This document shows, in pieces, positions 1,558 to 35,764 of a stretch of DNA of 64,000 nucleotides. The DNA is from an uncultured Actinomycetota bacterium (GTDB lineage Bacteria; Actinomycetota; Actinomycetes; Mycobacteriales; CAVVZQ01). Where the stretch lies: the NCBI GenBank assembly GCA_963752715.1, contig CAVVZQ010000006.1, positions 93,179-157,178 on the forward strand, in the 5' to 3' direction. The number at the start of each line of letters is the position of its first letter. The first letter of the stretch is position 1. The notes under the pieces are model-generated. The model worked only from the letters and a program-made list of their open reading frames with translations, did no database searches and was not told where the DNA came from. The position numbers and the translations under genes were made by a program.

Positions 1558-3230
1558 GGCCGCGCCTCCGTCACCGAAAGAACCCGCACCGAACCCGTCC
1601 GGCGCCCGTCCGCCCCCCAGTGCTCGGGCTCCAGTGGCAACGGCGACCTGGTCAGCTCCCCTCCATCGTGCACCGGGACAGTGAGCCGGAACCGGGCGCC
1701 CAGCCCGGGCTCGCCCCACGCCTGCAGCCAGCCTCCGTGCAGTCGGGTGTCTTGGAAGCTGATCGCCAGCCCCAGGCCGCTGCCGCCAATGGTCCGGGCC
1801 CGTGAGGAGTCCCCCCGGTAGAACCGGTTGAACACCAGCGCTGCCTCGCCGGGTCGCAGGCCTCTGCCGTGGTCCGCCACCACGACGGCCACGGCCTCGT
1901 CGTCGCCGGCCACCTGGACCTCGACCGGCGCCCCCTGCCCGTGCTCCAGCGCGTTGCCGAGCAGGTTGCGAAGAATCCGCTCGAAGCGGACCGCGTCGAT
2001 CTCGGCCATCAGCGGCGTGTCGGGCACGGTCAGCTCGAGCTGGCATCCCTGTCGCTCGGCCAGCGCGGCTGTCGCCGCCACCTCCCGCCGAACGATGCCG
2101 CCGACGTCCAGCCAGTCGGGATCCAGAACGGCCACATTCGCGTCGTGCCGGCTGATCTCCAGCAGGTCCGTCAGCAGCTTCTCGAAGCGGTCGACCTCCG
2201 TATCGAGCAGCTCGGCGGCCCGAGCGAGGTCCGGGGAGAACTCCCCGCGGGCGGAGTACATGACGTCCGCCGCCATTCGCAAGGTCGTCATCGGTGTTCG
2301 CAGCTCGTGGGAGACATCGCTGACGAAGCCCCGCTGCACGTCCGAGAGCCGCTCGAGCTCGGCGATCTGGCTCTGGAGGCTGTCGGCCATCCTGTTGAAC
2401 GAGGTTGCGAGGCGGGCCAGGTCGTCCTCTCCCGTGACCTTCATGCGCACGTCGAGGTCGCCGGCGGCCAGGTCCTCGGCATTGCTGCGGGCCTGCCGGA
2501 CCGGCGTCACAACCTGACGCGTCACCAGGGCGGCAACGCCGGCGAGGAGCACCACGAGGACCACACCGGCAGCTGCCATGGTCCGCTGCACCAGCGCGGC
2601 GGTGCTCGCCGTTTCGTTGAGCGGGAACAGGTAGTACAGCGTGAAGGGTCCGAACGTGGAGCCCGCGGTCCCTCCCACGACCAGACCCGGACCGTTCCCG
2701 CCGTTCGGCTGGGGCAGCTTGACGTACTGCAGCTGTACGAGCCCTGCCACGCCGATCGCCTCACGTAGGTCGGAGGGGATCTGCTCCAGGCCGACAACAC
2801 CGGAGGACACTGCTGCCACCGTGCCGCCGGGCGGAACAAGGACGACGTCGAACAGGCCCGCCTGGCTGCCCTTGCCCGAGAGGGTGTCGACCAGGGAGAC
2901 CATGTCCCGGCTCAGGTCCTCGTTGGAGCCCGGGGCCTGCCCCAGAGCGACACCAAGGGTACGAAGGCCGGAGCGAGTCTCGGCGACCGCGGCGGCACGC
3001 TGGCTTGCCACCAGGCCGCTCACCACCAGGTTCGTGACGACGACCAGCAGGACTGTGACGAGGATGCCGGAGAGCACCAGGGTGCTGGTGACGACCCGGA
3101 ACTGCAGGGACCGTCGCCACAGTCGCGCCGGAGGCGACTCCTGCGCGGCGCTGCCCAGCGTCCTCCAGGCCCCCCGGCCGAGCTCGAGCGCGCCGGTGGA
3201 CCACCGCAGCCACAGTGTGCGCGCATCCAT
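1554..3230 (-). CDS. mtrB: Sensor histidine kinase MtrB
   Basis: Internal ATG at 3230, 22 nt after the mtrA stop; the upstream part of ORF 1554..3602 overlaps mtrA and is R-rich. Has TM segments, a HAMP region, the H-box FVSDVSHELRTPMTTL and an HATPase region (LGNALEH, GSGLGLAI). Confidence 0.9.
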   Translation of the reverse strand: MDARTLWLRWSTGALELGRGAWRTLGSAAQESPPARLWRRSLQFRVVTSTLVLSGILVTVLLVVVTNLVVSGLVASQRAAAVAETRSGLRTLGVALGQAPGSNEDLSRDMVSLVDTLSGKGSQAGLFDVVLVPPGGTVAAVSSGVVGLEQIPSDLREAIGVAGLVQLQYVKLPQPNGGNGPGLVVGGTAGSTFGPFTLYYLFPLNETASTAALVQRTMAAAGVVLVVLLAGVAALVTRQVVTPVRQARSNAEDLAAGDLDVRMKVTGEDDLARLATSFNRMADSLQSQIAELERLSDVQRGFVSDVSHELRTPMTTLRMAADVMYSARGEFSPDLARAAELLDTEVDRFEKLLTDLLEISRHDANVAVLDPDWLDVGGIVRREVAATAALAERQGCQLELTVPDTPLMAEIDAVRFERILRNLLGNALEHGQGAPVEVQVAGDDEAVAVVVADHGRGLRPGEAALVFNRFYRGDSSRARTIGGSGLGLAISFQDTRLHGGWLQAWGEPGLGARFRLTVPVHDGGELTRSPLPLEPEHWGADGRRTGSVRVLSVTEARP

Positions 3231-3252
3231 GGAGTCTCGGTCCGTCCCTTTC

Positions 3253-3972
3253 CTACCCGCTCGGGGCCGTGCCCGGCGCCGGCCCCGCAGTGGCCTTGTA
3301 GCCGACGCCGCGCACGGTCTGGATGATCGTCGGGTTGTCCGGATCAGCCTCGATCTTCGCCCGCAGCCGCTGGATGTGGACATTGACCAGCCGGGTGTCC
3401 GCCTGGTGCCGGTAGCCCCAGACCTCCTCCAGCAAGGCATCCCTCGAGAAGACGAACCCGGGCCGTCTCGCCAGGCACACCAGCAGGTCGAACTCCAACG
3501 GAGTGAGTGCGACGGCCTCGCCGTCGCGGGTGACCGTGTGCCCCGGCACGTCGATCTCCAGCCCGCCCACCGACAGTGTCTCGGGATCCTCGCCGCCACC
3601 ACGGCGCAGCCGAGCCCGTACCCGCGCGACCAGCTCCTTGGGCCGGAAGGGCTTCACGACGTAGTCGTCGGCACCCGACTCCAGTCCGAGCACGACGTCG
3701 ACGGTGTCGCTCTTGGCGGTCAGCATGATGATCGGGATCGAGGACTCTTCCCGGAGCAAGGTGCACACATCCAGCCCATTCAGGCCGGGAAGCATGAGGT
3801 CCAGAAGTACTAGGTCAGGGTGGAACTCTCGGAAGGTGCGCAACGCCCGGTCACCGGAGGAGACGAAGGCTGTCTCGAATCCCTCGGAGCGCAGCACGAT
3901 GCCGAGCATCTCCGAGAGCGCTTCGTCGTCGTCGATGACGAGCACGCGCGGCCTGCTGTATCCGTGCTGCAC
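3253..3972 (-). CDS. mtrA: OmpR-family response regulator MtrA
   Basis: Receiver domain (VLVIDDDEAL...DLVLLDLMLPGLNG...KPF) plus a winged-helix domain (LTPLEFDLLVCLARRPGFVFSRDALLEEVWGY...VHIQRLRAKIE...TVRGVGYK). Sits in the mtrA-mtrB-lpqB order. Confidence 0.95.
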   Translation of the reverse strand: MQHGYSRPRVLVIDDDEALSEMLGIVLRSEGFETAFVSSGDRALRTFREFHPDLVLLDLMLPGLNGLDVCTLLREESSIPIIMLTAKSDTVDVVLGLESGADDYVVKPFRPKELVARVRARLRRGGGEDPETLSVGGLEIDVPGHTVTRDGEAVALTPLEFDLLVCLARRPGFVFSRDALLEEVWGYRHQADTRLVNVHIQRLRAKIEADPDNPTIIQTVRGVGYKATAGPAPGTAPSG

Positions 3973-4028
3973 CGTGGCCCCCTTGCCGAATGAGCGCTCC
4001 TCCGCGGTGGCGAAATCGTAACGCTTCG

Positions 4029-4055
4029 GTCACGATCTCTATCATTCCTATCATT
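4029..4055. promoter_or_regulatory. AT-rich patch in the mtrA / 4085 divergent intergenic region: one GTCAC, then TATCATT-cc-TATCATT (9-bp phasing)
   Basis: The sequence is ggtcacgatctctatcattcctatcattgg. It is the only AT-rich stretch between the mtrA start (3972) and the GTG at 4085. The repeat copies start at 4040 and 4049. Confidence 0.25.
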
Positions 4056-6822: not shown

Positions 6823-8146
6823 TCAGGAGCCGTACTGCCAGGAGGAGAGGTAGTCGGCCTGCGCGGGAGTGAGGGTGTCGATCGTGACGCCCATCGCCTC
6901 CAGCTTCAGCCGGGCAACCTCGGCGTCGATCGCCTCAGGCACCTCGTGCACTCCCGGGGTGAGGTCGGCGTACTTGGCAACCAGCCACTCCAGCGTCAGT
7001 GCCTGATCGGCGAAGCTCATGTCCATCACCGCCGCGGGATGACCCTCCGCAGCGCCCAGGTTCGCCAGCCGGCCCTCCGCGATCAGCATCAGCCGCCGCC
7101 CGTCCGCCATCCGGTACTCGTCGGTGTTCGGCCGCACCCCCCGCGTCACCGTCTCCGCCGCCGCGTCCAGAGCCTGCACGTCGATCTCCACATCGAAATG
7201 CCCGCTGTTCGCCAGCAGCGCCCCGTCCTTCATCACCGCGAAATGCTCCGCCCGCAGCACATCCCGGTTCCCGGTCACCGTCACGAACACATCACCCACC
7301 GCCGGCCGCCGCCGCCATCGGCAGCACGCTGAACCCCTCCATCGTGGCGTCCAGCGCCTTCACCGGGTCGATCTCCGTCACCACCACGTGCGCGCCCATC
7401 CCCCGCGCGCGCGAGGCAACACCCTTGCCGCAGTACCCGTACCCGCCCACGACCACCGTCTTGCCCGCCAGCAAGGTGTTCGTCGACCGGAAGATCGCAT
7501 CCAGCGTCGACTGCCCCGTCCCGTACCGGTTGTCGAACATGTGCTTGGTGTCCGTGTCGTTCACCGCCACCACCGGGAAGGCCAGCGCCCCGTCCGCCGC
7601 CATCTGACGCAGCCGGATCACCCCCGTCGTGGTCTCCTCACACCCCGCCCGCACCCCGTCGCGCATCTCACTGCGCGAGGTATGCAACTGGTTCACCAGA
7701 TCACAGCCATCGTCGAACACGAACTCCGGACCCACGTCCAACGCCGCGTCGATATGCGCGTAGTAGCCGTCCCGATCCACCCCATGCCGGGCGAACACAC
7801 TCACCCCGTACGCCGCCACCAGCGCCGCCGCCGTGTCATCCTGCGTGCTCAACGGATTCGACGCACACAGCCGCACCACCGCGCCACCCGCCACCAGCGT
7901 GCGCATCAGCACCGCCGTCTCGGTCGTCACATGCATGCACGCCGCCACCCGCGCCCCCTCCAACGGGCGCTCCGCAGCGAACCGCTCCCGAATCTGCCGC
8001 AACACCGGCATCGACCGCTCCGCCCAATCCACCCGACGCACCCCCGCATCGGACAACGACACATCCGCCACATCGTGCGGCGGAAGACCGGCGGGGGTCG
8101 AGGAGTGGCCTGCGGCGCTCGTGCTCGCGACGTTCGTTTTGCTCAC
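6823..8146 (-). pseudogene. ahcY: Adenosylhomocysteinase, split into two ORFs by a 1-nt frame break at 7295-7297
   Basis: ORF 7292..8146 reads ...[13 protein letters not shown]...[53 protein letters not shown] 6823..7299 reads (V)[19 protein letters not shown]...HFDVEIDV...YLSSWQYGS. Removing one G from the GGG run on the coding strand gives ...[16 protein letters not shown]. Confidence 0.85.
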
Positions 8147-12020: not shown

Positions 12021-12461
12021 CTACTCCGCCCGAGCAGCCGGGACAGACCGTAAGTGCCGCTTGCTTCCACGCCTGCCCGCAGTGCCCTGCGAGAGGTCGT
12101 CCCGCCCGAGCGCTTCCTCGCTCGCAGCCTTTCCGCCCGTGTGCTCCTGCTCCGGAGCGGAGTCAGAACCCGCTCGCGCGCTCGGCAGCGTCCGTCGGGA
12201 CTCCCGTACCGCATCCGCGATCGCCTCGAGGTCGTCCGGGTTCGGCGGAGCTGGCATGAACTCCCCCTCGTGACGGACCATCTCCCAGCCGCGCGGGGCC
12301 GACATCCGCACCGCGTGACCTTCGCACAGGTCGTAGGAGTGCGGCTCGTGATGCGTCGCCAGCGGGCCGACCACCGCAGTCGAGTCCGAGTACACATACG
12401 TGAGCGTCGCGACTGCTGGGCGTCCGCATCCCTGCCGGGAGCATCGACGGAAGAAGCTCAC
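12021..12461 (-). CDS. DUF3499 domain protein (Rv3258c-like)
   Basis: GTG start. CSRQGCGRPAVATLTYVYSDSTAVVGPLATHHEPHSYDLCEGHA. Confidence 0.8.
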   Translation of the reverse strand: MSFFRRCSRQGCGRPAVATLTYVYSDSTAVVGPLATHHEPHSYDLCEGHAVRMSAPRGWEMVRHEGEFMPAPPNPDDLEAIADAVRESRRTLPSARAGSDSAPEQEHTGGKAASEEALGRDDLSQGTAGRRGSKRHLRSVPAARAE

Positions 12462-12606
12462 GAGCCGTGACGCTAGTCATCCGGCGCCTCGGATGCCAGC
12501 CATTTCGATGCCTACCGGAGCGTGTCGTGATCAGAGCGTGACCCTGAGGCGACCCCGACCCCGCTCAAGCCGCCCGAGTGGCCGTGCCGGACTACCCTCG
12601 GTCCTC

Positions 12607-13140
12607 GTGAGACGCTTCGCGGGCGGCCGGTTCCGCCGAAGCCAGGACCTCCCGCGGCGACCCCGGGCGCGCGACCGCCATGGTCGGGGGCTGCGCTCGC
12701 CGCTGGTGCCCCCCGGAGTTCCCCTGTTCCGCACCCGTACGGAGCGCTTCGACGACCTGGTGCTCGACGCTGTCGAACACCTCGAGCCACGCTGGGGCAG
12801 AGAGCTCGCCGCGATCGAGTTCGCCGTCGAGGACGTTCCGCCGGACGAGACCGCAGACTGGGAACCGGACGTGCTCACGGACGGATCTGTGGCCCTGGCA
12901 CGGATCGTGCGTCCCCAGAGCGATGCACCGGCCCTCCCGGCCGAGCACGCCGACGGACGCGGTCCGGGCGGGCTCGGCGCACCGGTGAGCCGCCCCCGCA
13001 TCGTGATCTACCGGCGTCCGCTGGAGCTGCGGGCGGTGGATCGCCACGACCTCTCACACCTGGTTCACGACGTGGTGGTGGAGCAGGTCGCGCACGTGCT
13101 GGGGATCGAGCCGGGTGAGGTCGACTCACCCGGTCACTAG
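12607..13140 (+). CDS. Rv3259-like small protein of the metallopeptidase-like family; start uncertain
   Basis: RDRHGRGLRSPLVPPGVPLFRTRTERFDDLVLDAVEHLEPRW...RIVIYRRPLELRA...VVVEQVAHVLGI. GTG at 12607 is the first plausible start downstream of DUF3499. I did not see an intact HExxH. Confidence 0.55.
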   Translation: MRRFAGGRFRRSQDLPRRPRARDRHGRGLRSPLVPPGVPLFRTRTERFDDLVLDAVEHLEPRWGRELAAIEFAVEDVPPDETADWEPDVLTDGSVALARIVRPQSDAPALPAEHADGRGPGGLGAPVSRPRIVIYRRPLELRAVDRHDLSHLVHDVVVEQVAHVLGIEPGEVDSPGH

Positions 13141-13409
13141 ACGGCCGCCTGGCGACGTAGCCGACGGCGCTCCCGCTCGGAGAGACCCCCCCAGATCCCG
13201 AAGCGCTCGTCGTTGGCCAGCGCGTACTCCAGGCACTCGGCCTTCACCTCGCAGGTGCTGCAGATGCGCTTTGCCTCCCGCGTGGAGCCCCCCTTCTCAG
13301 GGAAGAAGGCCTCCGGGTCGGTCTGTGCGCACAGCGCCCGCTCGTGCCAATCCATGCCCTCACCCGAGGTGATCGTGAGCATGACCGAGGAGCTGGAACG
13401 GTCGGGCAT
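13137..13409 (-). CDS. whiB: WhiB-family Fe-S transcription factor (WhiB2/WhmD type)
   Basis: Cys motif ALCAQ...CSTCEVKAEC followed by GIWGG. ATG at 13409 is preceded by AGGAGG 5 nt upstream (ctaggaggcgtcATG). Confidence 0.9.
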   Translation of the reverse strand: MPDRSSSSVMLTITSGEGMDWHERALCAQTDPEAFFPEKGGSTREAKRICSTCEVKAECLEYALANDERFGIWGGLSERERRRLRRQAAV

Positions 13410-13491
13410 GACGCCTCCTAGCAGGTGGCCGCTGCGCGCAACGGCCTGATAGTGCTGGTACACGTGTCGTCGGGGTAAACGACATGGGTGA

Positions 13492-13520
13492 AATTACATA
13501 CGTGGATGACGCTCCCGTCA
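13492..13520 (-). promoter_or_regulatory. Candidate housekeeping-type promoter for whiB: TTGACG-N17-TGTAAT
   Basis: The minus strand reads cTTGACGggagcgtcatccacgtaTGTAATt. The -35 element is at 13515-13520 and the -10 at 13492-13497, about 80 nt upstream of ATG 13409, in a locally AT-richer patch. Confidence 0.4.
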
Positions 13521-22292: not shown

Positions 22293-23000
22293 GTGAACGC
22301 CTACCGTCGGGCAGCAGCCGCTGCGCTGCTGACAGTCGCACTGGGCGCGCTCGGCGCCTGCTCGTCACAGGACGCTGACCAGGGGAACAGCACCGGTGGC
22401 GACGACCCGCTCCGGGCGGCGGCGCCGTCGCCGACGGAATCGGCGACCCCGACGCCGCAGTCCGAACCCGGCCGCAACCCCCAAGCAGACCCGCTGCCGG
22501 AACCTGCGACCGAAGAGCCAGCTGCCGCCAGTCCGGCTCCCGCGCCGTCCCAGGCGGCCGCGAGGGCGACGACGAACGCATGTCGCTCCAGCCAGCTCAC
22601 CGGCGTCGAGGCTGACCGTCTCCTCGGCGACTCCGCTACCAAGGTCCTGTTCGTCTTCCGGACCGCCGCACCCGCGGGGTGCACGCTGCAGGGCTATCCC
22701 TCGATCACTCTTCTCGACGCCGCAGGAGCACCGGTGCCGGTGGCTGTGCGGCACGGCGGCCTCGGCCTGGTCACCACCAGCCCCAAGCCGCACGAGCTGC
22801 GTCCGGACGGCTCGCTGTCGTTCTTCCTGGCCATGCCTCCCCCGTCGGGAGGCAACTGCTCCTCCGCCGCCACGGTGCGCGTGGGCCTGCCCTCCAACGG
22901 GGGGTCGGTGGACGTGTCCAGCGACATCTCCGTCTGCACCGGGTCGGTCTCGGTGACCCCCTTCCAGGCACTCGGACAAGCCGGTCAGATCGGCAACTAG
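22293..23000 (+). CDS. DUF4232-type secreted lipoprotein
   Basis: GTG at 22293. Signal peptide and lipobox AAALLTVALGALGAC, a Pro/Ala/Thr linker, then CTLQGYPSITLLDAAGAPV. Confidence 0.7.
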   Translation: MNAYRRAAAAALLTVALGALGACSSQDADQGNSTGGDDPLRAAAPSPTESATPTPQSEPGRNPQADPLPEPATEEPAAASPAPAPSQAAARATTNACRSSQLTGVEADRLLGDSATKVLFVFRTAAPAGCTLQGYPSITLLDAAGAPVPVAVRHGGLGLVTTSPKPHELRPDGSLSFFLAMPPPSGGNCSSAATVRVGLPSNGGSVDVSSDISVCTGSVSVTPFQALGQAGQIGN

Positions 23001-23294
23001 CACCGGGATGTGACCGTCCAGGTCGCCCGAAAGGCCGGGCGGCTCGGGCCTCCGATTCCGAGTTGTGCGCGAACTGTGACGTCTCCGTAACGTTCCCGCT
23101 TCCCCCGACGCTGTGACCTGCTCGGACTCCGCCACCGCGACCGCCCCGACCCGGCCCCTGCCCCGCCGCGACCCGCCCCGCCTCGTCCAACACGCGAAGA
23201 GTCGTCGTCCGCCGGTCGGCGTGTCGGCCCTCGTCTAGGGGGGGTGCCCCTCGACGGGGAGTTCGCACTCTCGTACAGTCCCCAATCACAAATA

Positions 23295-23308
23295 GTCACT
23301 CCAGTCAC
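23295..23308 (+). promoter_or_regulatory. Direct repeat GTCACtcca-GTCACatgc (9-bp phasing), a candidate MtrA-type box
   Basis: Lies about 70 nt upstream of TTG 23377 in an AT-richer patch. A degenerate aTCACa lies at 23285-23290. Confidence 0.3.
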
Positions 23309-23376
23309 ATGCGTTGCAGCGTGTCGACTGGACATTGGGCGCTGAGGCGCACTCACAACGTTCGGAGAGGACTCCG

Positions 23377-25194
23377 TTGAACGGCTCCGCACCATCTCCG
23401 CTGTCGCCCAGAACGCGTGCCCGCATGGCCCTGGCCCTGGCCTTGGTCCCCGTGGCTGTCGCTGCCCCGGCGCTGGTGGTGACCGAGAGCTACCCGGGCT
23501 CTGCGCCAGCTCGGATCTTCTCGGCGAGCGCGTTCGCGGCGGCCCCCACACCGCGGGTCCCCAACGGCCTGCCATCGGCGATCGAGAAGTTCTCCGGGTA
23601 CCTGCCGCAGACCACCTGCGACCCAGTCGCCAAACCTGGCGTGACTGCCTTCCGAGCCATGGTCATGGGGCTGTACAGGGGGACGAGCGACTACGGAATC
23701 GTCCGCGACTGCGGTCTCGGCGGCACGAGCGAGCACAAGGAAGGCCGCGCCTGGGACTGGAAGGTCAGCGCGTACAACTCCACCCAGAAGGAGCAGGCCG
23801 ACACCCTGATGGCGTGGTTGCTGGCTCCGGACAAGAACGGCAACGAGGCCGCCATGGCCCGCAGGCTCGGCATCATGTACATCATCTGGAACCGGAAGAT
23901 CTGGGGTGCCTACGCAGCTGATAAGGGCTGGCGACCCTACTCGGGGGTCAGCGCACACACCGATCACGTGCACTTCTCCTTCTCATGGCCCGGGGCACTG
24001 AAGCAGACGTCGTTCTGGACCCGGTCGGTCGCCACCGTTCCGACCACACCGGTCGGCTTCGGGGTGTCGGGCAACGGCGCCGGGACCACGTCCTCCGCCG
24101 GCGGTGGGTCCACCACCGTGAAGTTCGGCGACCGGGGGACGCTCGTCGCGGCCGTACAGAAGGCCCTGAAGATCGACGCCGACGGCGTCTTCGGCAACCA
24201 GACCCGCACCGCCGTTGTCGCCTTCCAGACCCGCAAGAACCTCGTGCCGGACGGCGTCGTAGGGCCCACGACGCTGACGGCCCTGGGCCTCGACGGCAAG
24301 GGCAGGCCGCTGTCCGGAGCCTCGTCAGCGGTTCCGGTGTCGGCGCCCGAAGCCGGCCCCCAAGCCCGCCCGCCGCGCCCGCTCCCAAGCCCGCTCCCAA
24401 GCCCGCTCCGAAACCGGCCGCATCCAGCGCCCCGACCTCCGCCGGACTGCTCAAGGTCGGCTCCCGCGGCACCGCCGTCGCCAAGCTGCAACGCCTCCTC
24501 GGCATCAGCGCCGACGGCGTCTACGGCAGCCAGACCGCCGCCGCCGTCAAGAAGTTCCAGGCCAGCAAGGGCCTCACCGCCGACGGCATCGCCGGCCCCA
24601 ACACCGTGGCCGCCCTCACCGCAACCACACCCAAGCCGGCGCCCAAGCCGACCCCCAAGACCACGACCCAGCCCGCCCCCAGCCCGCTCCAGCCCGCTCC
24701 GAAACCGGCCGCATCCAGCGCCCCGACCTCCGCCGGACTGCTCAAGGTCGGCTCCCGCGGCAGCCGCCGTCGCCGAGCTGCAACGCCTCCTCGGCATCAG
24801 CGCCGACGGCGTCTACGGCAGCCAGACCGCCGCCGCCGTCAAGAAGTTCCAGGCCAGCAAGGGCCTCACCGCCGACGGCATCGCCGGCCCCAACACCGTG
24901 GCCGCCCTCACCGCAACCACACCCAAGCCGGCACCCGCCCCGAAGCCGGCGGCATCAGCAGGGTCGAACGTGGTGCCTGCGTCAGCAACGAAGCCGGTCG
25001 GATACCCCGGCACCACGCTCAAGACCGGGACCCGCGGGGCTGCGGTCCAGACCGTGCAGCGAGCCCTCAAGATCTCCGCCGACGGTGTGTTCGGCCCTCA
25101 GACGGCGGCCGCGGTGAAGACGTTCCAGGCAGCCAACGGTCTCAAGCCGGACGGCATCGTGGGCCCCCAGACATGGGCGAAACTGGTCCGTTAG
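23377..25194 (+). pseudogene. Secreted VanY/M15-motif (LAS-type) peptidoglycan peptidase fused to PG_binding_1 repeats (paralog 1). It has two frame breaks of opposite sign.
   Basis: The SD GGAGAGGA precedes TTG 23377, followed by a signal peptide. Carries SEHKEGRAWD (the SxHxxGxAxD motif) and HTDHVHFSF. The PG_binding_1 units (ADGVFG...PDGVVGP) are in frame up to about 24357. From 24357 to 24763 the correct units are in the 23985 frame, and after that they return to the first frame. Confidence 0.75.
24402..24932 (+). repeat. Intragenic direct duplication: 239/240-bp copies at 24402-24640 and 24693-24932
   Basis: By eye the two copies differ at 2 positions (aag/gag, and an extra g at 24763). 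Each encodes a linker plus one PG_binding_1 unit. Confidence 0.9.
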
Positions 25195-26212: not shown

Positions 26213-26318
26213 CTCGTCATGCTGTCACGTTGGGCTTCGCTTCGCGGCACGCGAGACACGCCGACAGGAGATGCGGGACTACACCGCTGTAATTCACTAG
26301 GGTGGACCCCCCTCTTCT

Positions 26319-26358
26319 GTGACTGATGTGACTCTCGTAGTCTCCTGTGACATGTCAC
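26319..26358. promoter_or_regulatory. GTGACtgat-GTGACtctc (GTCACatca-GTCACagaa on the minus strand) plus the palindrome GTGACATGTCAC spanning ATG 26352
   Basis: GTGAC at 26319, 26328 and 26347; GTCAC at 26354. Lies in the wbbL / paralog-2 divergent region. Confidence 0.3.
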
Positions 26359-27731
26359 GCCTCACGAGTAGCCACAGTCACCGTCGTCCGGCCGTGTCCC
26401 GGGCGTTGCTCGCTCTCGCGACCGCGACAGCGGTGACTCTCCCGCTCCTGCCTTCCGGCGTCGCCCACGCCGCAGCAGCGACACCTCGGGTGCCGGTCGA
26501 GCTTCCGAACGCCATCGAGGGCTTCTCCCCCTACGTCGGCCAGCAGTACTGCGACCCGGTGGTGCGACCGGGTGTCGCTGCCTTCCGTGCCGCCGTTCTC
26601 CGGGCCTACCCGGGATCCGGTGACTATGGGATCGTCCGTGACTGCGACCGGGGCGGTACCAGCGAGCACAAGGAAGGTCGCGCCTGGGACTGGCGGGTCA
26701 ACGCAGCCGTGCCGTCGCAGAACGCTGCGGCGCAGGCGCTGCTGAGCTGGCTGCTCGCCAAGGACGCCGCAGGCAACCCCGCAGCCATGGCTCGGCGGCT
26801 GGGGATCATGTACATCATCTGGGACGGACGCATGTGGCGGTCGTACCGGGCATCCGCCGGCTGGCTTCCCTTCGACGGGGCCAGCCGCCACAGCGACCAT
26901 GTCCACTTCTCGTTCTCCTGGGAAGGCGCCCTGCACGAGACGTCCTTCTTCACCGGCACGGTCGCCGCCCATCGGTCGGGACCACCCTGGCCACTTCCGC
27001 TGCAGCAGCCGACCGACGACTCGAGCGGCCAGAAGGGAGCGGCCCGCCCTGTCGGCACCGCCAGCAGCACCGGCAGCGTGGGTTACCCGGGCTACCCCCT
27101 CAAACCCGGCGCCACCGGACCCGCCGTCAGCACCGTCCAGCGCGCCCTCGGCCTCCCCGCCGACGGGAAGTACGGAGCCAACACCGACGCCGCCGTCACC
27201 CGCTGGCAGCAGGCCCACGGACTCACCCCCGACGGAGACGTCGGACCCATCACCTGGCGCCGACTCTTCGGCCATACCGGCACAACCGGCGCTGCCGGCG
27301 CATCCAGCAGGGTCGGATACCCGGGCTACCCCCTCAAACCCGGCGCCACCGGACCCGCCGTCAGCGCCGTCCAGCGCGCCCTCGGCCTCCCCGCCGACGG
27401 GAAGTACGGAGCCAACACCGACGCCGCCGTCACCCGCTGGCAGCAGGCCCACGGACTCACCCCCGACGGAGACGTCGGACCAATCACCTGGCAGCGACTC
27501 TTCGGCCAGGGCCAGGAGCTGGAACCGGTTTCCTCGCGGAAGGCGGTGGACACCCTGATGTACGGCTCGCGAGGTGGCAAGGTCACGAACCTCCAGAAGA
27601 AGCTGGGGATCCCCGCCAGCGGCTGGTTCGGCCCGCTCACGCGAGCCGCCGTCGTCAGGTACCAGACGGATCACGGCCTGACGGTCGACGGGATGGCCGG
27701 CCCCGAGACACGCGCCGCTCTGGGGGTGTGA
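26352..27731 (+). CDS. Secreted VanY/M15-motif peptidase fused to three PG_binding_1 units (paralog 2, intact)
   Basis: Signal peptide ...LLPSGVAHAAAA. Carries SEHKEGRAWD and HSDHVHFSF. Has two near-identical PG-binding repeats and a third divergent one. The track ORF begins at GTG 26319. Confidence 0.85.
   Translation: MSRLTSSHSHRRPAVSRALLALATATAVTLPLLPSGVAHAAAATPRVPVELPNAIEGFSPYVGQQYCDPVVRPGVAAFRAAVLRAYPGSGDYGIVRDCDRGGTSEHKEGRAWDWRVNAAVPSQNAAAQALLSWLLAKDAAGNPAAMARRLGIMYIIWDGRMWRSYRASAGWLPFDGASRHSDHVHFSFSWEGALHETSFFTGTVAAHRSGPPWPLPLQQPTDDSSGQKGAARPVGTASSTGSVGYPGYPLKPGATGPAVSTVQRALGLPADGKYGANTDAAVTRWQQAHGLTPDGDVGPITWRRLFGHTGTTGAAGASSRVGYPGYPLKPGATGPAVSAVQRALGLPADGKYGANTDAAVTRWQQAHGLTPDGDVGPITWQRLFGQGQELEPVSSRKAVDTLMYGSRGGKVTNLQKKLGIPASGWFGPLTRAAVVRYQTDHGLTVDGMAGPETRAALGV
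27083..27508 (+). repeat. Intragenic direct duplication, 234-bp period (copies at about 27083-27274 and 27317-27508)
   Basis: The copies differ at about 3-4 positions in about 190 bp. Each encodes GYPGYPLKPGATGPAVS.VQRALGLPADGKYGANTDAAVTRWQQAHGLTPDGDVGPITW. Confidence 0.9.
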
Positions 27732-27858
27732 GGCGCCCGGACCGCAACACGCGGTCGCTCGCCACGGCGAACACGCCCCGGCGCCAGCACGAGAATCTAG
27801 GCTTTCGGTACCCGCGTTTCGGGAACGGCCGGCGAATCAGCAGCGTCGTAGTGTTTAC

Positions 27859-29439
27859 GTGGGTATGTCCGAAGGGCGGAGCATGACGGAACTGGCGACC
27901 GGAAGGCAGCCCCCGTCCGCCACGCCCCGGGGCGGTCGCCCACCTCGGCCTCCTATCGCGCCTCGACCGGCACCGGTGAGCACCCGGAGCCCGCGCCGAG
28001 GGATGGCAGCCATCGTGGCCGGGATCGCATCCAGCGGCGTCTTTCTGCTCAGCGGTGCCCTCTACGCCGGCTACGCCACCTTCGACGGCAACCTGTCCCG
28101 AGTGGACATCAGCGGCGGAGTCGCCGCAGGTCCTCCTACCTCGCTGAGCGGTTCGGCCACGTCCCCGGACTCCACACACCCGGCCATGAACGTGCTGCTG
28201 GTGGGCGTCGACGACCGCTCGAACCTGAGCAAGACGCAGCTTGCGGAGATCGCGACCGAGGATGTCGGAACCGCCCTGACCGACACCATCATCCTGGCTC
28301 ACCTGCCCGCGAAGGTAGATCCGGGCGCCCCCGACCAGGCGGTACTGGTTTCTATCCCCCGGGACTCGTGGGTGAGCATCCCCGGGTACGGGATGAACAA
28401 GATCAACTCGGCCTACCTCGAGGCCGGAGAAGGAGAGGAGGGCGCGCAGGCACTCATCGCGACGGTGGAGAACCTCTCCGGACTCGACATCGACCACTAC
28501 GTCCAAGTCGACCTCAACGGCTTCCTCTCTATCGCGGACGCGATCGGCGGCGTCGATGTGTGCCTCAAGCACGCCGTCGACGACGAGTACACCCAGCTGG
28601 TCCTGCCCGCAGGACCGCAGACGCTCGACGGGGTGGATTCGCTGCGCTTCGTGCGCCAACGCCACGGGCTGCCGCAGGGAGACCTCGACCGCATCGTGCG
28701 CCAGCAGGCTTTCCTCTCCGCCGCTTTGCGCAAAGTGACCAGCGCCGGGACGCTGCTCAACCCATGGCGGGTGAACGCGCTGCTCAACGCCACGACCGAC
28801 GCCCTCGTCGTGGACGAGGGCCTGACAGTGAACCGGATGCGCGACCTCGCCTTCAGCCTGAAGGGCATAGCGGCCGGAAACGTGGAGTTCCGGACCATAC
28901 CTGTCACCGGTCTCGGGGTCGAAGACGGCCAGTCGGTGGTCCGTCTCAACGACGACGAGCTGCCCGCGTTCTTCGAGTCCCTCAACGAGCTCGCGCCAGA
29001 GCCGGAACCGGCACTGGACCGACCCGAGCCCGGTGCACCCGTGCTGACGGTTCCGGCCCGGGACGTGAGCGTCGCCGTACGCAACGGCTCGGGCGTCAAC
29101 GGTGCAGCTACCAAGGCGGAGCGTGCTCTGCAGGCCAAGGGCTTCGACACCGTCGGGTATCCGTCAAATGCCGACCGGCAGGACTACGAAACCTCCGTCG
29201 TCTTCTACGGGCCGGGCCAGTCCGAGGCGGCACGCACCCTGGCCACCGCCGTGGAGGGCGCCGAGACCGAGTACGACGAGTCACTGGGCTCGACGCTCCG
29301 GCTCGTCGTCGGGGCCAACTACGCGGGGATTCGTGCCATCACGGTGCCTGGGGACACACCTCCCCCGCCATCCCCCGAGCCGTCCGAGGAACCCGTGTAC
29401 CAGTCCCGCTACGCCGACGACGCCAGCTGCGTGAACTAG
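27859..29439 (+). CDS. LytR-CpsA-Psr (LCP) family cell-wall glycopolymer ligase with a LytR_C domain
   Basis: N-terminal TM segment. LCP core (NVLLVGVDDR...DTIILAHL...SIPRDSWV...INSAY...LRFVRQRHG...GDLDRI.RQQ). C-terminal VAVRNGSGVNGAATKA. The start could be ATG 27865 or 27883. Confidence 0.9.
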   Translation: MGMSEGRSMTELATGRQPPSATPRGGRPPRPPIAPRPAPVSTRSPRRGMAAIVAGIASSGVFLLSGALYAGYATFDGNLSRVDISGGVAAGPPTSLSGSATSPDSTHPAMNVLLVGVDDRSNLSKTQLAEIATEDVGTALTDTIILAHLPAKVDPGAPDQAVLVSIPRDSWVSIPGYGMNKINSAYLEAGEGEEGAQALIATVENLSGLDIDHYVQVDLNGFLSIADAIGGVDVCLKHAVDDEYTQLVLPAGPQTLDGVDSLRFVRQRHGLPQGDLDRIVRQQAFLSAALRKVTSAGTLLNPWRVNALLNATTDALVVDEGLTVNRMRDLAFSLKGIAAGNVEFRTIPVTGLGVEDGQSVVRLNDDELPAFFESLNELAPEPEPALDRPEPGAPVLTVPARDVSVAVRNGSGVNGAATKAERALQAKGFDTVGYPSNADRQDYETSVVFYGPGQSEAARTLATAVEGAETEYDESLGSTLRLVVGANYAGIRAITVPGDTPPPPSPEPSEEPVYQSRYADDASCVN

Positions 29440-33246: not shown

Positions 33247-34260
33247 CTACCCGGTGAGCCGGTCGACCGTCTCACGAGCGACGCCGAGCGAGGCCGGCAG
33301 GTCGATCGCATGCCACTGCAGCGAAGATCGCACCCCCCAGCCAGAGGCCCGGCCGATCCGCTCCAGCCGTTCCTGGACGAGGTCGGCAAGTATCTCCGCC
33401 TGTTCGATGATCGCACCGGACTGCCGTGTGAGAACCGCGAACCTCGCGGGGCCGAGTCGCACCACGGTCTGCCCACTGCTGTAGAGCAGCCGCAGGCTGC
33501 GTGACACCTCGATGAGAGCCTCGGAGTCCGTCAGCTCGTCACGTCGCACGTCCCCGAAGTCCACGACCACGAGGGCCCAGCGACGGCCGGGTGCAACGCC
33601 GCGGTACTCCGCCTCCTCGTACACCTCGCGCAGTCGAAGCTGCAGGTACGAGGGCGTCCCGAGACCGGTGAGCGCGTCCACGGCCGGCTCCGCGGCGGCG
33701 TACGAGCTCGCCTGAGACCAGCCACGCGCGAGGGCGACGGCCACCTGTGGGTCCAGCGACTCCACGCCGAGCGCATCAGCGAGGGCGGCGAGGTCCTCCA
33801 GAGCCTCCGTCATACCAGCACCGATCTCAGCCCGATCCCTCCCCAGACCCTCGAAATACTCTTCACCGACAGCGCCGTACGGCTTCGCCACAAGCGATGC
33901 GACAAGTCCGTCCACCGATGGCGCATGCCAATCCGACGGCACTCTCCAGCCTCGTTTCAGCGAGGCCGCCTGCCATCGGTCCATGAGCCGATGACTGTCG
34001 CGCGGTACCCGTCTACCAGGGGTGAGGCGGACCAGCACGGTCCCGGGGGATTGCAGAATGCGGACGAGGCCGGGTTCCGAGCTCCGTCCGGAAGCATCGT
34101 CAATAGGCGGTCCGGACCCCGTGTTTCGCCGCCGGCCCGGGGCGCCGATGAACAGCGGCACAATGGACCTCGTTCCCTTCGGATCGCTCACACGTATGAG
34201 ACGAGCAAAGCGAGCCTTGAGTTCGCAGAAGGTGCGCTCATACTGTGTGATATCCATCAC
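33247..34260 (-). CDS. Protein with a degenerate GGDEF-like C-terminal domain and an unknown N-terminal region
   Basis: VDALTGLGTPSYL...WALVVVDFGDV...VVRLGPARFAVL, where GPARF stands in place of GGDEF. Codons ending in A/T are clearly more frequent than in neighbouring genes. The start is uncertain (ATG 34260, or an internal Met at about 33985). Confidence 0.55.
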   Translation of the reverse strand: MMDITQYERTFCELKARFARLIRVSDPKGTRSIVPLFIGAPGRRRNTGSGPPIDDASGRSSEPGLVRILQSPGTVLVRLTPGRRVPRDSHRLMDRWQAASLKRGWRVPSDWHAPSVDGLVASLVAKPYGAVGEEYFEGLGRDRAEIGAGMTEALEDLAALADALGVESLDPQVAVALARGWSQASSYAAAEPAVDALTGLGTPSYLQLRLREVYEEAEYRGVAPGRRWALVVVDFGDVRRDELTDSEALIEVSRSLRLLYSSGQTVVRLGPARFAVLTRQSGAIIEQAEILADLVQERLERIGRASGWGVRSSLQWHAIDLPASLGVARETVDRLTG

Positions 34261-34282
34261 AGCAGGGCAGACGGGGAGAGAC

Positions 34283-35764
34283 GTGGACGGTCAGGACGAG
34301 GTGCCGGTCGGCCCCTCCGACTCCTCCGTGGCCGGCGAGCTCTCCGACGAGTTCCTCATCGGGCAGGTCCGCGCGGGCGACTCGGACGCCTACGGCGTGC
34401 TCTACGAGCGGCACCGAGGCGCGGCCCAGTCACTGGCACGCCAGCTGTCGCGAGACTCCTCGGAGGCTGACGACCTGGTCTCTGACGCTTTCCTCAAGGT
34501 CCGCAGCGTCCTGGACGACGGCCGGGGTCCCGACGCGGCCTTCCGCGCCTACCTGTTGACGACGGTGCGGCGGCTGGCCTACGACCGGACTCGCTCAGGC
34601 CGTCGACTGGTCAGCACCAGCGACTACGCGGGTCTGGACACCGCCGTACCGTTCCGGGACACCACTGCCTCCGCGCTGGAGGCCAGCATGGCCTCCGACG
34701 CCTTCAACACGCTGCCGGAGCGCTGGCGGCTGGTCCTGTGGCACCGGGTAGTGCTGGGGCACTCCACAGAGCAGGTGGCGCGCGAGCTGGGAACGACGCC
34801 CTCCGCCGTCGCCGCGCTGCTCTACCGCGCCCGCGAGGGTCTGCGGGAGGCGTACCTGCAGGCGCACATCACACAGCAGCCACAGAGCGTCGACTGCGAC
34901 TGGACCATAGAGCGGCTCGCCGCCTACGCGAGAGGCGGCCTGCCGAAGCGCGAGTCAGCGCGAGTTCGCAGTCACCTCGACGAGTGCGAGCGCTGTCGGA
35001 CCCTGAACAACGAGGTCCGCGAGGTCAACGCGACCCTGCGGGCCGCCATGGCGCCCGCGCTCCTGGGCTCGTCGGCGGCACTGCTCACCAGCTCCGCCAC
35101 GGTTGGCGGTTCGTCGCTCACCGGTGCGAGCGCCGGTGCCGGGGTCACGAAGCTGATGCTGGTGGGACTCGCCCTCGGCGGGACCCTCACCGTGGCCACC
35201 GGCAGCACTCTGTACCTGCTGAACAGCGACAGCCCGGCTCCGGGTGCGGAGTACTCGACGACCCACGCCGTGCTGAGTGCCGAGGAGCTGTCGCGACTCG
35301 CCGAGCTGTGCAGCAGGCCGGGGTACGGGGCCGGAAGCAGCGGACCCCGGGGTGAAGCGGGTCCAGGCATCGTGGGCGTACCGTCGCGGGAGACCCCCGT
35401 CGCACTCGGGCCGGACGGAACCACCGTGGCGTCGCTGGTCGCCGACGGGGCTTCCGCCATGCTGGTCGACGTCACCGCGGCTCGGCTGCTCAGCCAGCCT
35501 TGCGTGGCCATCAGCTCGGCCCAAGGCGCGACGTTCCTGTCTTTCGGCTCCCAGACGGAACGGCCCTGGAGGTGCTCGACGCAGGCGACGACCATACTGT
35601 GCCGCCCGGAAGGCCGGTGGTGGCGCTCGGCAGACTCCGACCCGGCCGGGGAGTTCGACCTGTTCGTCAGCACTCGGACCAGTGCGACGGACGACCGCAG
35701 CCCCATGGTCTACGTGATCACCCAGACCAGGGGCGGCTACAGCGTGGAGCCGGTCGATAGCTGA
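34283..35764 (+). CDS. ECF sigma factor fused to a zf-HC2 anti-sigma motif, one TM helix and a ~190-aa extracytoplasmic domain
   Basis: Sigma-2 region (DAYGVLYERHRGAAQSLARQLS...ADDLVSDAFLKV). Sigma-4 region (LPERWRLVLWHRVVLGHSTEQVARELGTTPSAVAALLYRAREGLR). Then C-x26-HLDECERC and the TM helix VTKLMLVGLALGGTLTVATG. GTG at 34283 follows GGGGAGAG. Confidence 0.8.
   Translation: MDGQDEVPVGPSDSSVAGELSDEFLIGQVRAGDSDAYGVLYERHRGAAQSLARQLSRDSSEADDLVSDAFLKVRSVLDDGRGPDAAFRAYLLTTVRRLAYDRTRSGRRLVSTSDYAGLDTAVPFRDTTASALEASMASDAFNTLPERWRLVLWHRVVLGHSTEQVARELGTTPSAVAALLYRAREGLREAYLQAHITQQPQSVDCDWTIERLAAYARGGLPKRESARVRSHLDECERCRTLNNEVREVNATLRAAMAPALLGSSAALLTSSATVGGSSLTGASAGAGVTKLMLVGLALGGTLTVATGSTLYLLNSDSPAPGAEYSTTHAVLSAEELSRLAELCSRPGYGAGSSGPRGEAGPGIVGVPSRETPVALGPDGTTVASLVADGASAMLVDVTAARLLSQPCVAISSAQGATFLSFGSQTERPWRCSTQATTILCRPEGRWWRSADSDPAGEFDLFVSTRTSATDDRSPMVYVITQTRGGYSVEPVDS

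What the first reader, a model, noticed from the sequence alone, without database searches (positions are those of the whole stretch)
23009..23308. MtrA-box-like GTCAC direct repeat upstream of peptidoglycan-enzyme paralog 1
About 70 nt before the start codon (TTG 23377) an AT-richer patch reads aATCACaaata-GTCACtcca-GTCACatgc, with exact 9-bp phasing at 23295 and 23304. From memory, M. tuberculosis MtrA binds direct repeats of a 9-mer GTCACAgcg. MtrA in mycobacteria and corynebacteria controls cell-wall hydrolase genes (ripA and rpf genes; mepA and nlpC). Three further TGTGAC hexamers lie at 23009, 23075 and 23112 in the same 375-bp non-coding region. mtrA-mtrB-lpqB is encoded about 20 kb away in this window.
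Basis: partly seen in the sequence, partly recalled or inferred. Interest (0 to 1): 0.6.

Follow-up and report, generated by a model that had tools for sequence, protein, structure and literature searches.

The report
Conserved TGTGAC operator before cell-wall endopeptidase genes
The GTCAC repeat is real and is one copy of a conserved regulatory DNA element found in front of a family of cell-wall-cutting enzymes in actinobacteria, but its 9-bp spacing is not that of a classical MtrA site, and a better MtrA-type site lies about 210 bp further upstream.

Summary
Observation confirmed: ATCAC 23285, GTCAC 23295 and 23304, and TGTGAC at 23009, 23075 and 23112.

The 9-bp pair occurs twice in 64 kb. 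The second copy (26318-26332) lies directly upstream of the paralog. The same TGTGAC-N3-TGTGAC pair lies upstream of orthologs in eight other genomes (Janibacter, Marihabitans, a Micrococcales MAG). That is 8 of its 9 occurrences in 648 kb. Upstream of the 80 homologs, GTNAC pairs are enriched at periods 9 and 18, and only weakly at 11.

Both genes encode Mt3/VldE-type zinc L,D-endopeptidases with peptidoglycan-binding domains.

Interpretation partly supported. TGTGAC(C) is a perfect MtrA half-site. This MtrA has the same recognition helix as M. tuberculosis MtrA apart from one Val-to-Ile change, and the same wing. The M. tuberculosis family member Rv0320 is a high-affinity MtrA target. But validated MtrA sites have an 11-bp period, not 9.

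Sequences matching the MtrA 7-4-7 site pattern occur at three places in the window, all intergenic: the mtrA promoter, the Rv3258c/Rv3259-like divergent promoter, and 23075-23092 upstream of this gene.

Most likely the proximal repeats are an operator over the predicted transcription start. MtrA is the leading candidate binder (about 0.45), and an unidentified factor with a 9-bp register is the main rival. No RNA element is supported.

The parts
23285..23309 (-). Proximal array, the finding itself. Read on the minus strand it is TGTGAC-tgg-AGTGAC-tatt-TGTGAT: three TGTGAC-type units at 0, 9 and 19 bp. It lies at about +1 to +25 of the predicted transcription start.
   Evidence: 28.5 bits; identical in L081
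23251..23279 (+). Predicted housekeeping-type promoter of paralog 1: -35 TCGACG (23251-23256), 17-nt spacer, -10 TACAGT (23274-23279). The predicted start is near 23285. This is an inference, not a mapped start.
   Evidence: Read. The string ACTCTCGTA is shared with the paralog-2 promoter (26331-26339). The region lies in the 97%-conserved island. The generic E. coli-type scan found nothing.
23075..23092 (+). Distal sequence of the canonical MtrA form (7-4-7), TGTGACG-tctc-CGTAACG, with an 11-bp period.
   Evidence: It is one of only three places in 64 kb that match YGTNAY-N5-YGTNAY, and all three are intergenic. It lies in a stretch (23053-23096) unchanged in L081.
23109..23118 (-). Single half-site. 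CGCTGTGAC is the exact reverse complement of the M. tuberculosis 9-mer GTCACAGCG, and TGTGACC is a perfect 7-bp box.
   Evidence: the hexamer is conserved in L081
23009..23015 (+). Single TGTGACC half-site just after the stop codon of the DUF4232 gene.
   Evidence: GTGACC is kept in L081, but the flanking DNA is poorly conserved.
23377..25194 (+). Paralog 1: a secreted Mt3/VldE-type LAS zinc L,D-endopeptidase domain (motifs SEHKEGRAWDW and HTDHVHFSF) followed by three PG_binding_1 domains.
26318..26332 (+). Second copy of the pair, TGTGAC-tga-TGTGAC. It fills the -35/spacer position of the paralog-2 promoter, 5 bp upstream of TAGTCT (26338-26343).
   Evidence: 28.8 bits; aligned with orthologous sites
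26347..26358 (.). Perfect 12-bp palindrome GTGACATGTCAC over the annotated ATG (26352) of paralog 2.
   Evidence: The stretch 26319-26398 has the highest density of GTSAC in the whole window, 5 in 80 bp.
26278..26294 (.). Second conserved block of the paralog-2-type upstream region: the palindrome ACTACA-ccgc-TGTAATT (family consensus AAyTACA-N4-yGTAATT).
   Evidence: Alignment A1, with ACA and GTAAT invariant in 11 sequences. It accompanies the endopeptidase gene even where the divergent neighbour differs.
26352..27731 (+). Paralog 2 (459 aa, P0005): the same domain architecture, followed by an LCP-family gene (27826-29439).
4018..4034 (-). Reference site: CGTGACC-gaag-CGTTAC upstream of mtrA. 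It is a perfect match to the Streptomyces consensus and to the M. tuberculosis 7-4-7 form.
   Evidence: MtrA binds its own promoter in S. venezuelae (PMC13189361).
12526..12542 (+). Reference site: CGTGATC-agag-CGTGAC, between the DUF3499 gene (12021-12476, -) and a plus-strand Rv3259-like gene.
   Evidence: rv3258c and rv3259 are MtrA ChIP targets in M. tuberculosis.
3253..3972 (-). mtrA. The recognition helix TRLVNVHIQRLRAK and the wing VRGVGYKA match M. tuberculosis MtrA (2GWR), apart from one Val-to-Ile change in the helix.
   Evidence: helix and wing as defined in PMC10609481

Best explanation
The GTCAC repeats are one copy of a conserved DNA operator built from TGTGAC units in a 9-bp register. 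This operator accompanies genes for Mt3/VldE-type peptidoglycan L,D-endopeptidases in several actinobacterial lineages.

In paralog 1 the array (23285-23309, units on the minus strand) begins at the predicted transcription start, just downstream of a -10 TACAGT. In paralog 2 the pair fills the -35/spacer region, and a palindromic copy covers the start. A protein bound there would block RNA polymerase, so the element most likely represses the hydrolase genes.

The likeliest binder is the response regulator MtrA. It would read each unit as one half-site in a non-canonical spacing. A canonical MtrA box at 23075-23092, about 210 bp upstream, would help it.

Shown here: the repeats, their specificity to these genes, their conservation and their 9/18-bp register; the enzyme family; the MtrA-type half-site match; and the sequences of canonical MtrA form elsewhere in the window.

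Inferred: the promoter and start site, repression, and MtrA as the binder.
For: Element is real:
- The second copy lies at the paralog.
- The matrix scores are far above any other place in the window.
- 7 of the 9 intergenic TGTGAC hexamers lie in 515 bp.
- 8 of the 9 exact pairs in 648 kb lie upstream of orthologs in 8 genomes.
- Weaker copies lie upstream of homologs in Kribbia, Nostocoides, Dermatophilaceae and Sporichthyaceae-type MAGs, in both orientations.
- In the 450-bp zones upstream of the 80 homologs, period 9 occurs 9 times against 0.66 expected, and period 18 occurs 6 times against 0.99.
- The repeats lie in a conserved island in L081.

MtrA link:
- TGTGAC(C) fits the 7-bp M. tuberculosis box (PMC11215152).
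- The recognition helix matches M. tuberculosis MtrA apart from one Val-to-Ile change, and the wing is identical (PMC10609481).
- The gene family is homologous to TM4 Mt3 and to VldE.
- Mt3 is related to Rv0320 (PMC1796659). Rv0320 is an MtrA ChIP target in two studies, and its fragment has a KD of 1.42e-7 M.
- The pneumococcal VldE belongs to the WalRK regulon (PMC11667670).
- The three places in the window with the 7-4-7 form are all intergenic. Each matches a documented MtrA target in a model species (PMC13189361).
- Streptomyces homologs carry GTGACC-N5-GTKAC followed by a third unit 9 bp on.
- MtrA sites near the -10 repress cell-wall peptidase genes in C. glutamicum (PMC3353115).
- MtrA can bind single half-sites in vitro (PMC13189361).
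Against: - The period is 9 bp in every orthologous site, and 18 bp in the distal Janibacter array. Validated MtrA sites have 11 bp (10 tolerated once, at bldD-a). In C. glutamicum the linker length matters, and replacing one box of a high-affinity M. tuberculosis site lowers affinity about 85,000-fold (PMC3353115, PMC5650626, PMC10609481).
- Orthologs in Janibacter and its relatives have no canonical 7-4-7 box at all.
- Paralog 2 also has an inverted pair, which a tandem-binding regulator is not expected to use.
- The promoter and start site are predicted only.
- No binding data exist for this organism.
- The sequence of the Rv0320 site could not be retrieved.
Confidence: 0.45

Rival explanations
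1. The operator is the same, but the protein is different. The TGTGAC arrays are bound by an unidentified, widely conserved actinobacterial factor that stacks head to tail with one protomer per 9 bp, as BldC-family proteins do. MtrA acts, if at all, only at the distal canonical box 23075-23092.
For: - The 9/18-bp register is strongly selected.
- The number of units varies: 2 in most orthologous sites, 3 in paralog 1, L011 and L074.
- Both orientations relative to the gene occur.
- BldC binds 9-bp direct repeats of variable number as head-to-tail multimers, and BldC-like proteins are widespread (PMC5859096).
- Relatives lack canonical MtrA boxes.
Against: - The BldC unit is AATTnnnnC with an AT-rich minor groove. 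The units here are GC-rich and do not fit it.
- No BldC homolog is in the window, although 64 kb is a small sample.
- No known factor with a TGTGAC-N3 specificity was found in the literature search.
- The half-site identity with MtrA and the MtrA-Rv0320 link would then be coincidences.
Confidence: 0.35
2. In paralog 1 the proximal repeats have no function of their own. They are a chance cluster, or a decaying remnant of the paralog-2-type operator left after duplication and inversion.
For: - The count in the window is only marginally above chance.
- The orientation is inverted relative to most orthologs.
- The only relative informative for paralog 1 is 93% identical.
Against: - The repeats lie in a 78-bp block with no change, while the flanks are 72-79% identical.
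- The matrix score of 28.5 bits equals that of the best orthologous sites.
- The position just after the predicted -10 parallels the palindrome in paralog 2.
- Minus-strand copies also occur upstream of other homologs (L054, L050).
Confidence: 0.1
3. GTCACA is the -35 element of an alternative (ECF41/SigJ-type) sigma-factor promoter, TGTCACA-N16-CGTC. That consensus is recalled from memory.
For: - GTCACA at 23304-23309 is followed after 15 nt by CGAC.
- An ECF sigma gene and a zinc-finger anti-sigma gene lie at 33995-35764.
Against: - No CGTC lies at the right distance in paralog 1, in paralog 2, or in the Janibacter sites on either strand. This was read.
- A tandem 9-bp duplication of a -35 element has no role in such promoters.
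- The orientation differs between loci.
Confidence: 0.05
4. The repeats are part of a structured 5' leader RNA, either a riboswitch or a protein-binding leader.
For: - The repeats lie in the predicted 92-nt leader.
- A hairpin pairs TCCAGTC (23300-23306) with GACTGGA (23326-23332).
- Cell-wall hydrolase genes of actinobacteria often carry riboswitches. This last point is from my own knowledge.
Against: - No Rfam family matches, either at gathering scores over the whole window or at E<=10 over the region, where only noise appears.
- The folding z-score is -1.19.
- The consensus fold of 8 orthologous leaders has a covariation term of 0.
- The element occurs on either strand relative to the gene.
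Confidence: 0.03

Closest known systems
MtrA boxes of M. tuberculosis, Streptomyces and C. glutamicum (OmpR/PhoB-type tandem sites)
   Same: - The half-site is the same (t/c-G-T-n-A-C-c; GTCACA).
- The units are in direct orientation.
- The site lies in the promoter of a cell-wall hydrolase gene.
- The regulator is encoded in the window, and its DNA-reading residues are conserved.
- The distal site 23075-23092 meets the full 7-4-7 form.
   Different: The proximal repeats, and all orthologous pairs, have a 9-bp rather than an 11-bp period. Paralog 2 adds an inverted pair.
WalRK (VicRK) control of VldE/Spr1875 in Streptococcus pneumoniae
   Same: The enzyme family is the same (Mt3/VldE LAS L,D-endopeptidase). 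In both cases it may be controlled by the essential cell-wall two-component system. WalR and MtrA are homologs.
   Different: The phylum differs. The WalR consensus, TGTWAH-N5-TGTWAH with an 11-bp period, is recalled from memory. Regulation here is untested.
BldC-type operators (Streptomyces)
   Same: Direct repeats in a 9-bp register, of variable number, usable in either orientation.
   Different: The unit sequence AATTnnnnC is not present, and no BldC gene is seen in the window.
Bacillus subtilis PhoP boxes (TT(A/T/C)ACA with a 5±2-bp spacer; from memory)
   Same: This is an OmpR-family regulator reported to tolerate periods of 9 to 13 bp. It shows that a 9-bp period is not excluded for the family.
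   Different: The regulator and the half-site differ. The point was not verified in the papers read here.

Membership tests
MtrA box (proximal repeats 23285-23309) | Half-site fits the 7-bp box t/c-G/t-T/a-n-a-C/T-c (core GTnAC) | tested here: met
   On the minus strand the units are TGTGACT, AGTGACT and TGTGATT. The motif is as given in PMC11215152 and PMC5650626.
MtrA box (proximal repeats 23285-23309) | Two half-sites in direct orientation | tested here: met
   All three units are on the same strand.
MtrA box (proximal repeats 23285-23309) | 4-bp spacer between the 7-bp boxes, giving an 11-bp period (10 bp seen once, at bldD-a) | tested here: not met
   23295 to 23304 is 9 bp. 23285 to 23295 is 10 bp, but with the weaker unit GTGAT. 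All orthologous pairs are at 9 bp.
MtrA box (proximal repeats 23285-23309) | Bound by (phospho-)MtrA in vitro or in vivo | not testable with these tools
   This needs EMSA, footprinting or ChIP.
MtrA box (distal site 23075-23092) | 7-4-7 direct repeat with consensus half-sites, in an intergenic position | tested here: met
   The sequence is TGTGACG-tctc-CGTAACG. It is one of three places that match YGTNAY-N5-YGTNAY (0.85 expected), and all three are intergenic. It is unchanged in L081.
Mt3/VldE LAS L,D-endopeptidase (downstream gene) | Conserved H..G.A.D and H.DH.H zinc motifs, and homology to VldE-MT3 and to TM4 Mt3 | tested here: met
   SEHKEGRAWDW and HTDHVHFSF are present. PDB 9FLH matches at E=0.0015. 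The TM4 tape-measure protein matches at residues 786-907 with 87.5% probability. The database annotates PF26571. Enzyme activity was not tested.
BldC-type direct repeats | 9 bp per protomer, in head-to-tail arrays | tested here: met
   Periods 9 and 18 are enriched.
BldC-type direct repeats | Unit AATTnnnn(C) with an AT-rich minor groove | tested here: not met
   The units are TGTGACnnn, and they are GC-rich in the Janibacter sites. The BldC unit is as given in PMC5859096.
Known RNA families (Rfam 15, including the riboswitches found before cell-wall hydrolase genes) | Covariance-model match | tested here: not met
   There are no matches at gathering scores. At E<=10 only three matches appear, each far below its family's gathering score.
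ECF41-type promoter | TGTCACA-N16-CGTC | tested here: not met
   GTCACA at 23304 is followed by CGAC at N15. Nothing comparable occurs at paralog 2 or in Janibacter. The consensus is recalled from memory.

The most novel reading that the evidence does not exclude
The TGTGAC-N3-TGTGAC arrays define an undescribed operator type that is conserved across several actinobacterial orders and dedicated to Mt3/VldE L,D-endopeptidase genes. It would be read either by MtrA in a second, 9-bp binding geometry or by an unknown factor that polymerises with a 9-bp register.
Probability: 0.35. Interest if true: 0.5.

Novelty: new member of a known kind. Interest (0 to 1): 0.35.

Why it matters
MtrAB is the essential cell-wall two-component system of actinobacteria, and its binding motif is loosely defined. 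A sharply conserved element in front of one hydrolase family gives a clean test case. The element has perfect half-sites but the wrong spacing, and it sits next to sequences of canonical form in the same genome.

If MtrA binds the element, the accepted 11-bp rule is incomplete, and regulon predictions miss such sites. If another protein binds it, a second regulator of peptidoglycan endopeptidases exists. That regulator could be identified with culturable Janibacter strains.

The work also links an uncharacterised actinobacterial enzyme family to the VldE endopeptidase and to the documented MtrA target Rv0320. As it stands, this is ordinary promoter biology with one unexplained detail.

Tried and rejected
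- RNA element: rejected.
- Generic sigma-70 and terminator scans: nothing found.
- Looking up the source contig by exact protein: failed twice.
- Only one close relative of paralog 1 was found (L081).
- The metagenome scan with MtrA, meant to test whether the mtrA-promoter box is conserved, returned 11 orthologs at 63-73% identity. Their upstream regions could not be aligned and carried no clear box.
- Rajagopalan 2010, Brocker 2011 and Purushotham 2015 are not held. The original spacing of the GTCACAgcg repeats is therefore taken from later papers.
- The 26-bp Rv0320 fragment sequence is not in the held supplements.
- tblastn of the catalytic domain against phages missed TM4, and PHROGs gave only a weak hit of unknown function. 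Profile comparison was needed.
- The Pfam copy of the tool lacks PF26571.
- Motifs considered and dropped, all judged by eye against consensus sequences recalled from memory: the CRP/GlxR, Rex, BldD, BldM, WhiA, GlnR, SigD, SigH/R, DnaA-box and MraZ motifs. Each fails on spacing or on core bases.
- The strict 7-4-7 pattern is absent from the upstream zones of the 80 homologs.

Full report
**1. What is there**

The sequence is as described. ATCAC is at 23285, GTCAC at 23295 and 23304 (9-bp phase), and TGTGAC at 23009, 23075 and 23112. All lie in the 376-bp gap between a DUF4232 gene (ending at 23000) and a gene starting at TTG 23377. That start codon has the ribosome-binding site GGAGAGG (23364-23370) and gives a signal peptide with a basic N-region. 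Public gene calls use ATG 23425 instead. mtrA, mtrB and lpqB lie at 376-3972 on the minus strand.

**2. The genes**

The downstream protein and its paralog (26352-27731) are 54% identical in their N-terminal domains. Each carries three PG_binding_1 domains.

- The N-terminal domain is annotated PF26571 (VldE) in the public protein collection.
- It keeps the LAS zinc-peptidase motifs SEHKEGRAWDW and HTDHVHFSF.
- A profile of it matches PDB 9FLH at the GI.YIIW and H.DHVH motifs. A second entry carries an H-to-A change in that motif.
- It aligns with the Mt3 region of the mycobacteriophage TM4 tape-measure protein (hhalign 87.5%, E=3.6e-6).
- VldE is the WalRK-regulated L,D-endopeptidase of S. 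pneumoniae. Its catalytic module is the Mt3 motif (PMC11667670).
- Mt3 is related to M. tuberculosis Rv0320 and Rv1728c (PMC1796659).

The neighbourhood is the conserved actinobacterial cell-envelope region. It holds phosphomannomutase, a WhiB gene, DUF3499, GT4 and GT2 glycosyltransferases, and an LCP ligase gene right after paralog 2.

**3. More than chance**

By count alone the pair is marginal: 2 matches against 0.43 expected. The evidence lies in where the copies are.

- The second match is TGTGACtgaTGTGAC at 26318-26332, directly upstream of the paralog.
- Of the 9 TGTGAC/GTCACA hexamers in the 5.36 kb of intergenic DNA, 7 lie in these two upstream regions (515 bp). None of the other 25 intergenic stretches has the pair.
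- Among 80 homologous loci from genomes, the exact pair occurs 9 times in 648 kb. Eight of these lie 60-80 nt upstream of the start codon of the ortholog, in Janibacter (six species or MAGs), Marihabitans and a Micrococcales MAG.
- A matrix built from these sites finds weaker copies upstream of homologs in Kribbia, Nostocoides, Dermatophilaceae and Sporichthyaceae-type MAGs, on either strand. Some have three units: L011 GTGGC-N4-GTGGC-N4-GTGAC, and L074 GTGAC-N4-GGGAC-N4-GTGAC.
- In the 450-bp zones upstream of the homologs, GTNAC pairs are enriched at period 9 (9 against 0.66 expected) and period 18 (6 against 0.99). At periods 10 and 11 the enrichment is weak (3 and 2 against 0.49).
- In Janibacter the divergent neighbour is a CoA-transferase gene, not the GT2 gene of this window. 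The element therefore accompanies the endopeptidase gene.
- In the one close relative of paralog 1 (L081, 93%), intergenic identity is 87% overall. It is 97% in 23246-23346, with 23263-23340 unchanged, and 96% in 23058-23127. The flanks are 72-79% identical.

**4. Anatomy**

Paralog 1 has a plausible promoter: TCGACG, 17 nt, then TACAGT (23251-23279). The array would then begin at about +1.

Paralog 2 shares the string ACTCTCGTA at the same place, with -10 TAGTCT (26338-26343). It has no -35 hexamer. The TGTGAC pair occupies that position, and the palindrome GTGACATGTCAC covers the ATG. The transcript may be leaderless.

These promoters are my reading of the sequence. The generic scan found nothing.

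In both genes, TGTGAC-type units cover the start region. This is the position where C. glutamicum MtrA represses cell-wall peptidase genes (PMC3353115).

**5. Is it an MtrA box?**

For:
- TGTGAC(C) is a perfect instance of the 7-bp M. tuberculosis box (PMC11215152). CGCTGTGAC at 23109-23117 is the exact complement of GTCACAGCG.
- The recognition helix of this MtrA differs from that of M. tuberculosis MtrA only by one Val-to-Ile change, and the wing is identical (PMC10609481).
- Rv0320 is an MtrA ChIP-seq target at both time points and in Minch 2015. Its fragment is among the tightest of 294, with a KD of 1.42e-7 M.

Against:
- Every study gives an 11-bp period: 9-nt repeats with a 2-nt spacing (PMC6265350), 7+4 (PMC11215152), GTnACC-n5-GTnACn with one 10-bp case (PMC5650626), and 8+3 with linker length important (PMC3353115).

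**6. An internal control**

GTNAC pairs at period 11 occur at only two places in the window. The stricter form YGTNAY-N5-YGTNAY occurs at three places. That is 4 matches, because one place matches on both strands, against 0.85 expected, and 1 of 100 shuffles reaches 4. All three places are intergenic, although intergenic DNA is only 8.4% of the window. They are:

- 4018-4034, upstream of mtrA. MtrA binds its own promoter in S. venezuelae (PMC13189361).
- 12526-12542, between the DUF3499 gene and a plus-strand Rv3259-like gene. rv3258c, rv3259 and whiB2 are ChIP targets in M. tuberculosis. The correspondence to Rv3258c and Rv3259 rests on synteny, from my own knowledge.
- 23075-23092, upstream of paralog 1.

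The canonical form therefore marks plausible MtrA sites in this organism, and paralog 1 has one.

Two Streptomyces homologs carry GTGACC-N5-GT(G/T)AC followed by a third unit 9 bp further on. The Janibacter-type orthologs have no canonical box.

**7. Rivals**

- An RNA element is not supported, and it does not fit an element used on either strand.
- BldC shows that a 9-bp head-to-tail register exists in actinobacterial regulators (PMC5859096). Its unit sequence does not fit, however, and no homolog is in the window.
- ECF41-type promoters, DnaA boxes, MraZ repeats and several palindromic operators fail on spacing or on core bases. This was judged by eye against consensus sequences recalled from memory.

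**8. Verdict**

The element is real and regulatory (about 0.85).

It is probably an operator that represses Mt3/VldE endopeptidase genes by covering the start region.

MtrA is the best single candidate for the binder (about 0.45). The grounds are half-site identity, the family's record as an MtrA/WalR target, and the adjacent canonical box. A different factor with a 9-bp register is the main rival (about 0.35).

That paralog 1 is under MtrA control through some site is more likely than not (about 0.6).

This is a new member of a known kind of feature, with one unexplained property: the conserved 9-bp register.

Noticed in passing
window 4018-4034 (-): A perfect canonical MtrA-type box, CGTGACC-gaag-CGTTAC, lies upstream of mtrA and overlaps a possible -10 (TACGAT). 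It suggests autoregulation.
   Followed up: partly
window 4037-4055 (-): Immediately upstream of that box is an AT-rich tandem repeat, AATGATAGg AATGATAGa, with a 9-bp period. It is reminiscent of BldC-type AATTnnnnC units. This was read by eye.
   Followed up: no
window 12526-12542: A third canonical MtrA-type box, CGTGATC-agag-CGTGAC, lies in the divergent gap between a DUF3499 gene and a plus-strand Rv3259-like gene, next to a WhiB gene (13137-13493). The equivalent M. tuberculosis locus is an MtrA ChIP target.
   Followed up: partly
window 26278-26294; alignment A1: The palindrome AAyTACA-N4-yGTAATT is conserved upstream of the paralog-2-type genes in 11 sequences, and is perfect in L011 and L070. 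It looks like an operator for a dimeric factor. The half TGTAAT resembles a WalR half-site. The binder is unknown.
   Followed up: partly
window 26347-26358: The perfect palindrome GTGACATGTCAC spans the annotated ATG of paralog 2, 4 nt after a -10-like TAGTCT. The mRNA may be leaderless.
   Followed up: no
window 6823-8146 (-): Adenosylhomocysteinase is split into two overlapping reading frames by a frameshift near 7295, in a GC-rich repeat. This is probably an assembly indel.
   Followed up: partly
window 1-2046 (-): lpqB also changes frame near 380-520. Its C-terminal part continues in another frame and runs off the start of the window. Two frameshifts in 64 kb point to an error-prone assembly. 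The repeat spacing is nevertheless confirmed by the independent contig L081.
   Followed up: partly
window 33995-35764 (+): An ECF sigma factor gene and a zinc-finger (zf-HC2) anti-sigma gene read as one open frame. This may be a cell-envelope stress system, 8 kb from the hydrolase genes.
   Followed up: no
window 23300-23332: An inverted repeat, TCCAGTC ... GACTGGA, has an imperfect 13-bp stem that includes the third GTCAC. It would form a hairpin in the predicted leader. It is unchanged in L081, so there is no covariation information.
   Followed up: partly
L031 3860-3884; L047 3868-3893: Streptomyces homologs have no signal peptide and carry beta-propeller-like repeats. Upstream they carry GTGACC-N5-GT(G/T)AC plus a third unit 9 bp further on. 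I could not check whether the S. coelicolor or S. venezuelae ortholog is in the published MtrA ChIP lists.
   Followed up: no
L007 about 3782-3804, and the other Janibacter loci: The Janibacter upstream regions have a second array, GTGAC-N4-GGAAy-N4-GTGAC (18-bp pair with a conserved middle unit), and a conserved GGGTCTGGCGTG block between the palindrome and the arrays.
   Followed up: no
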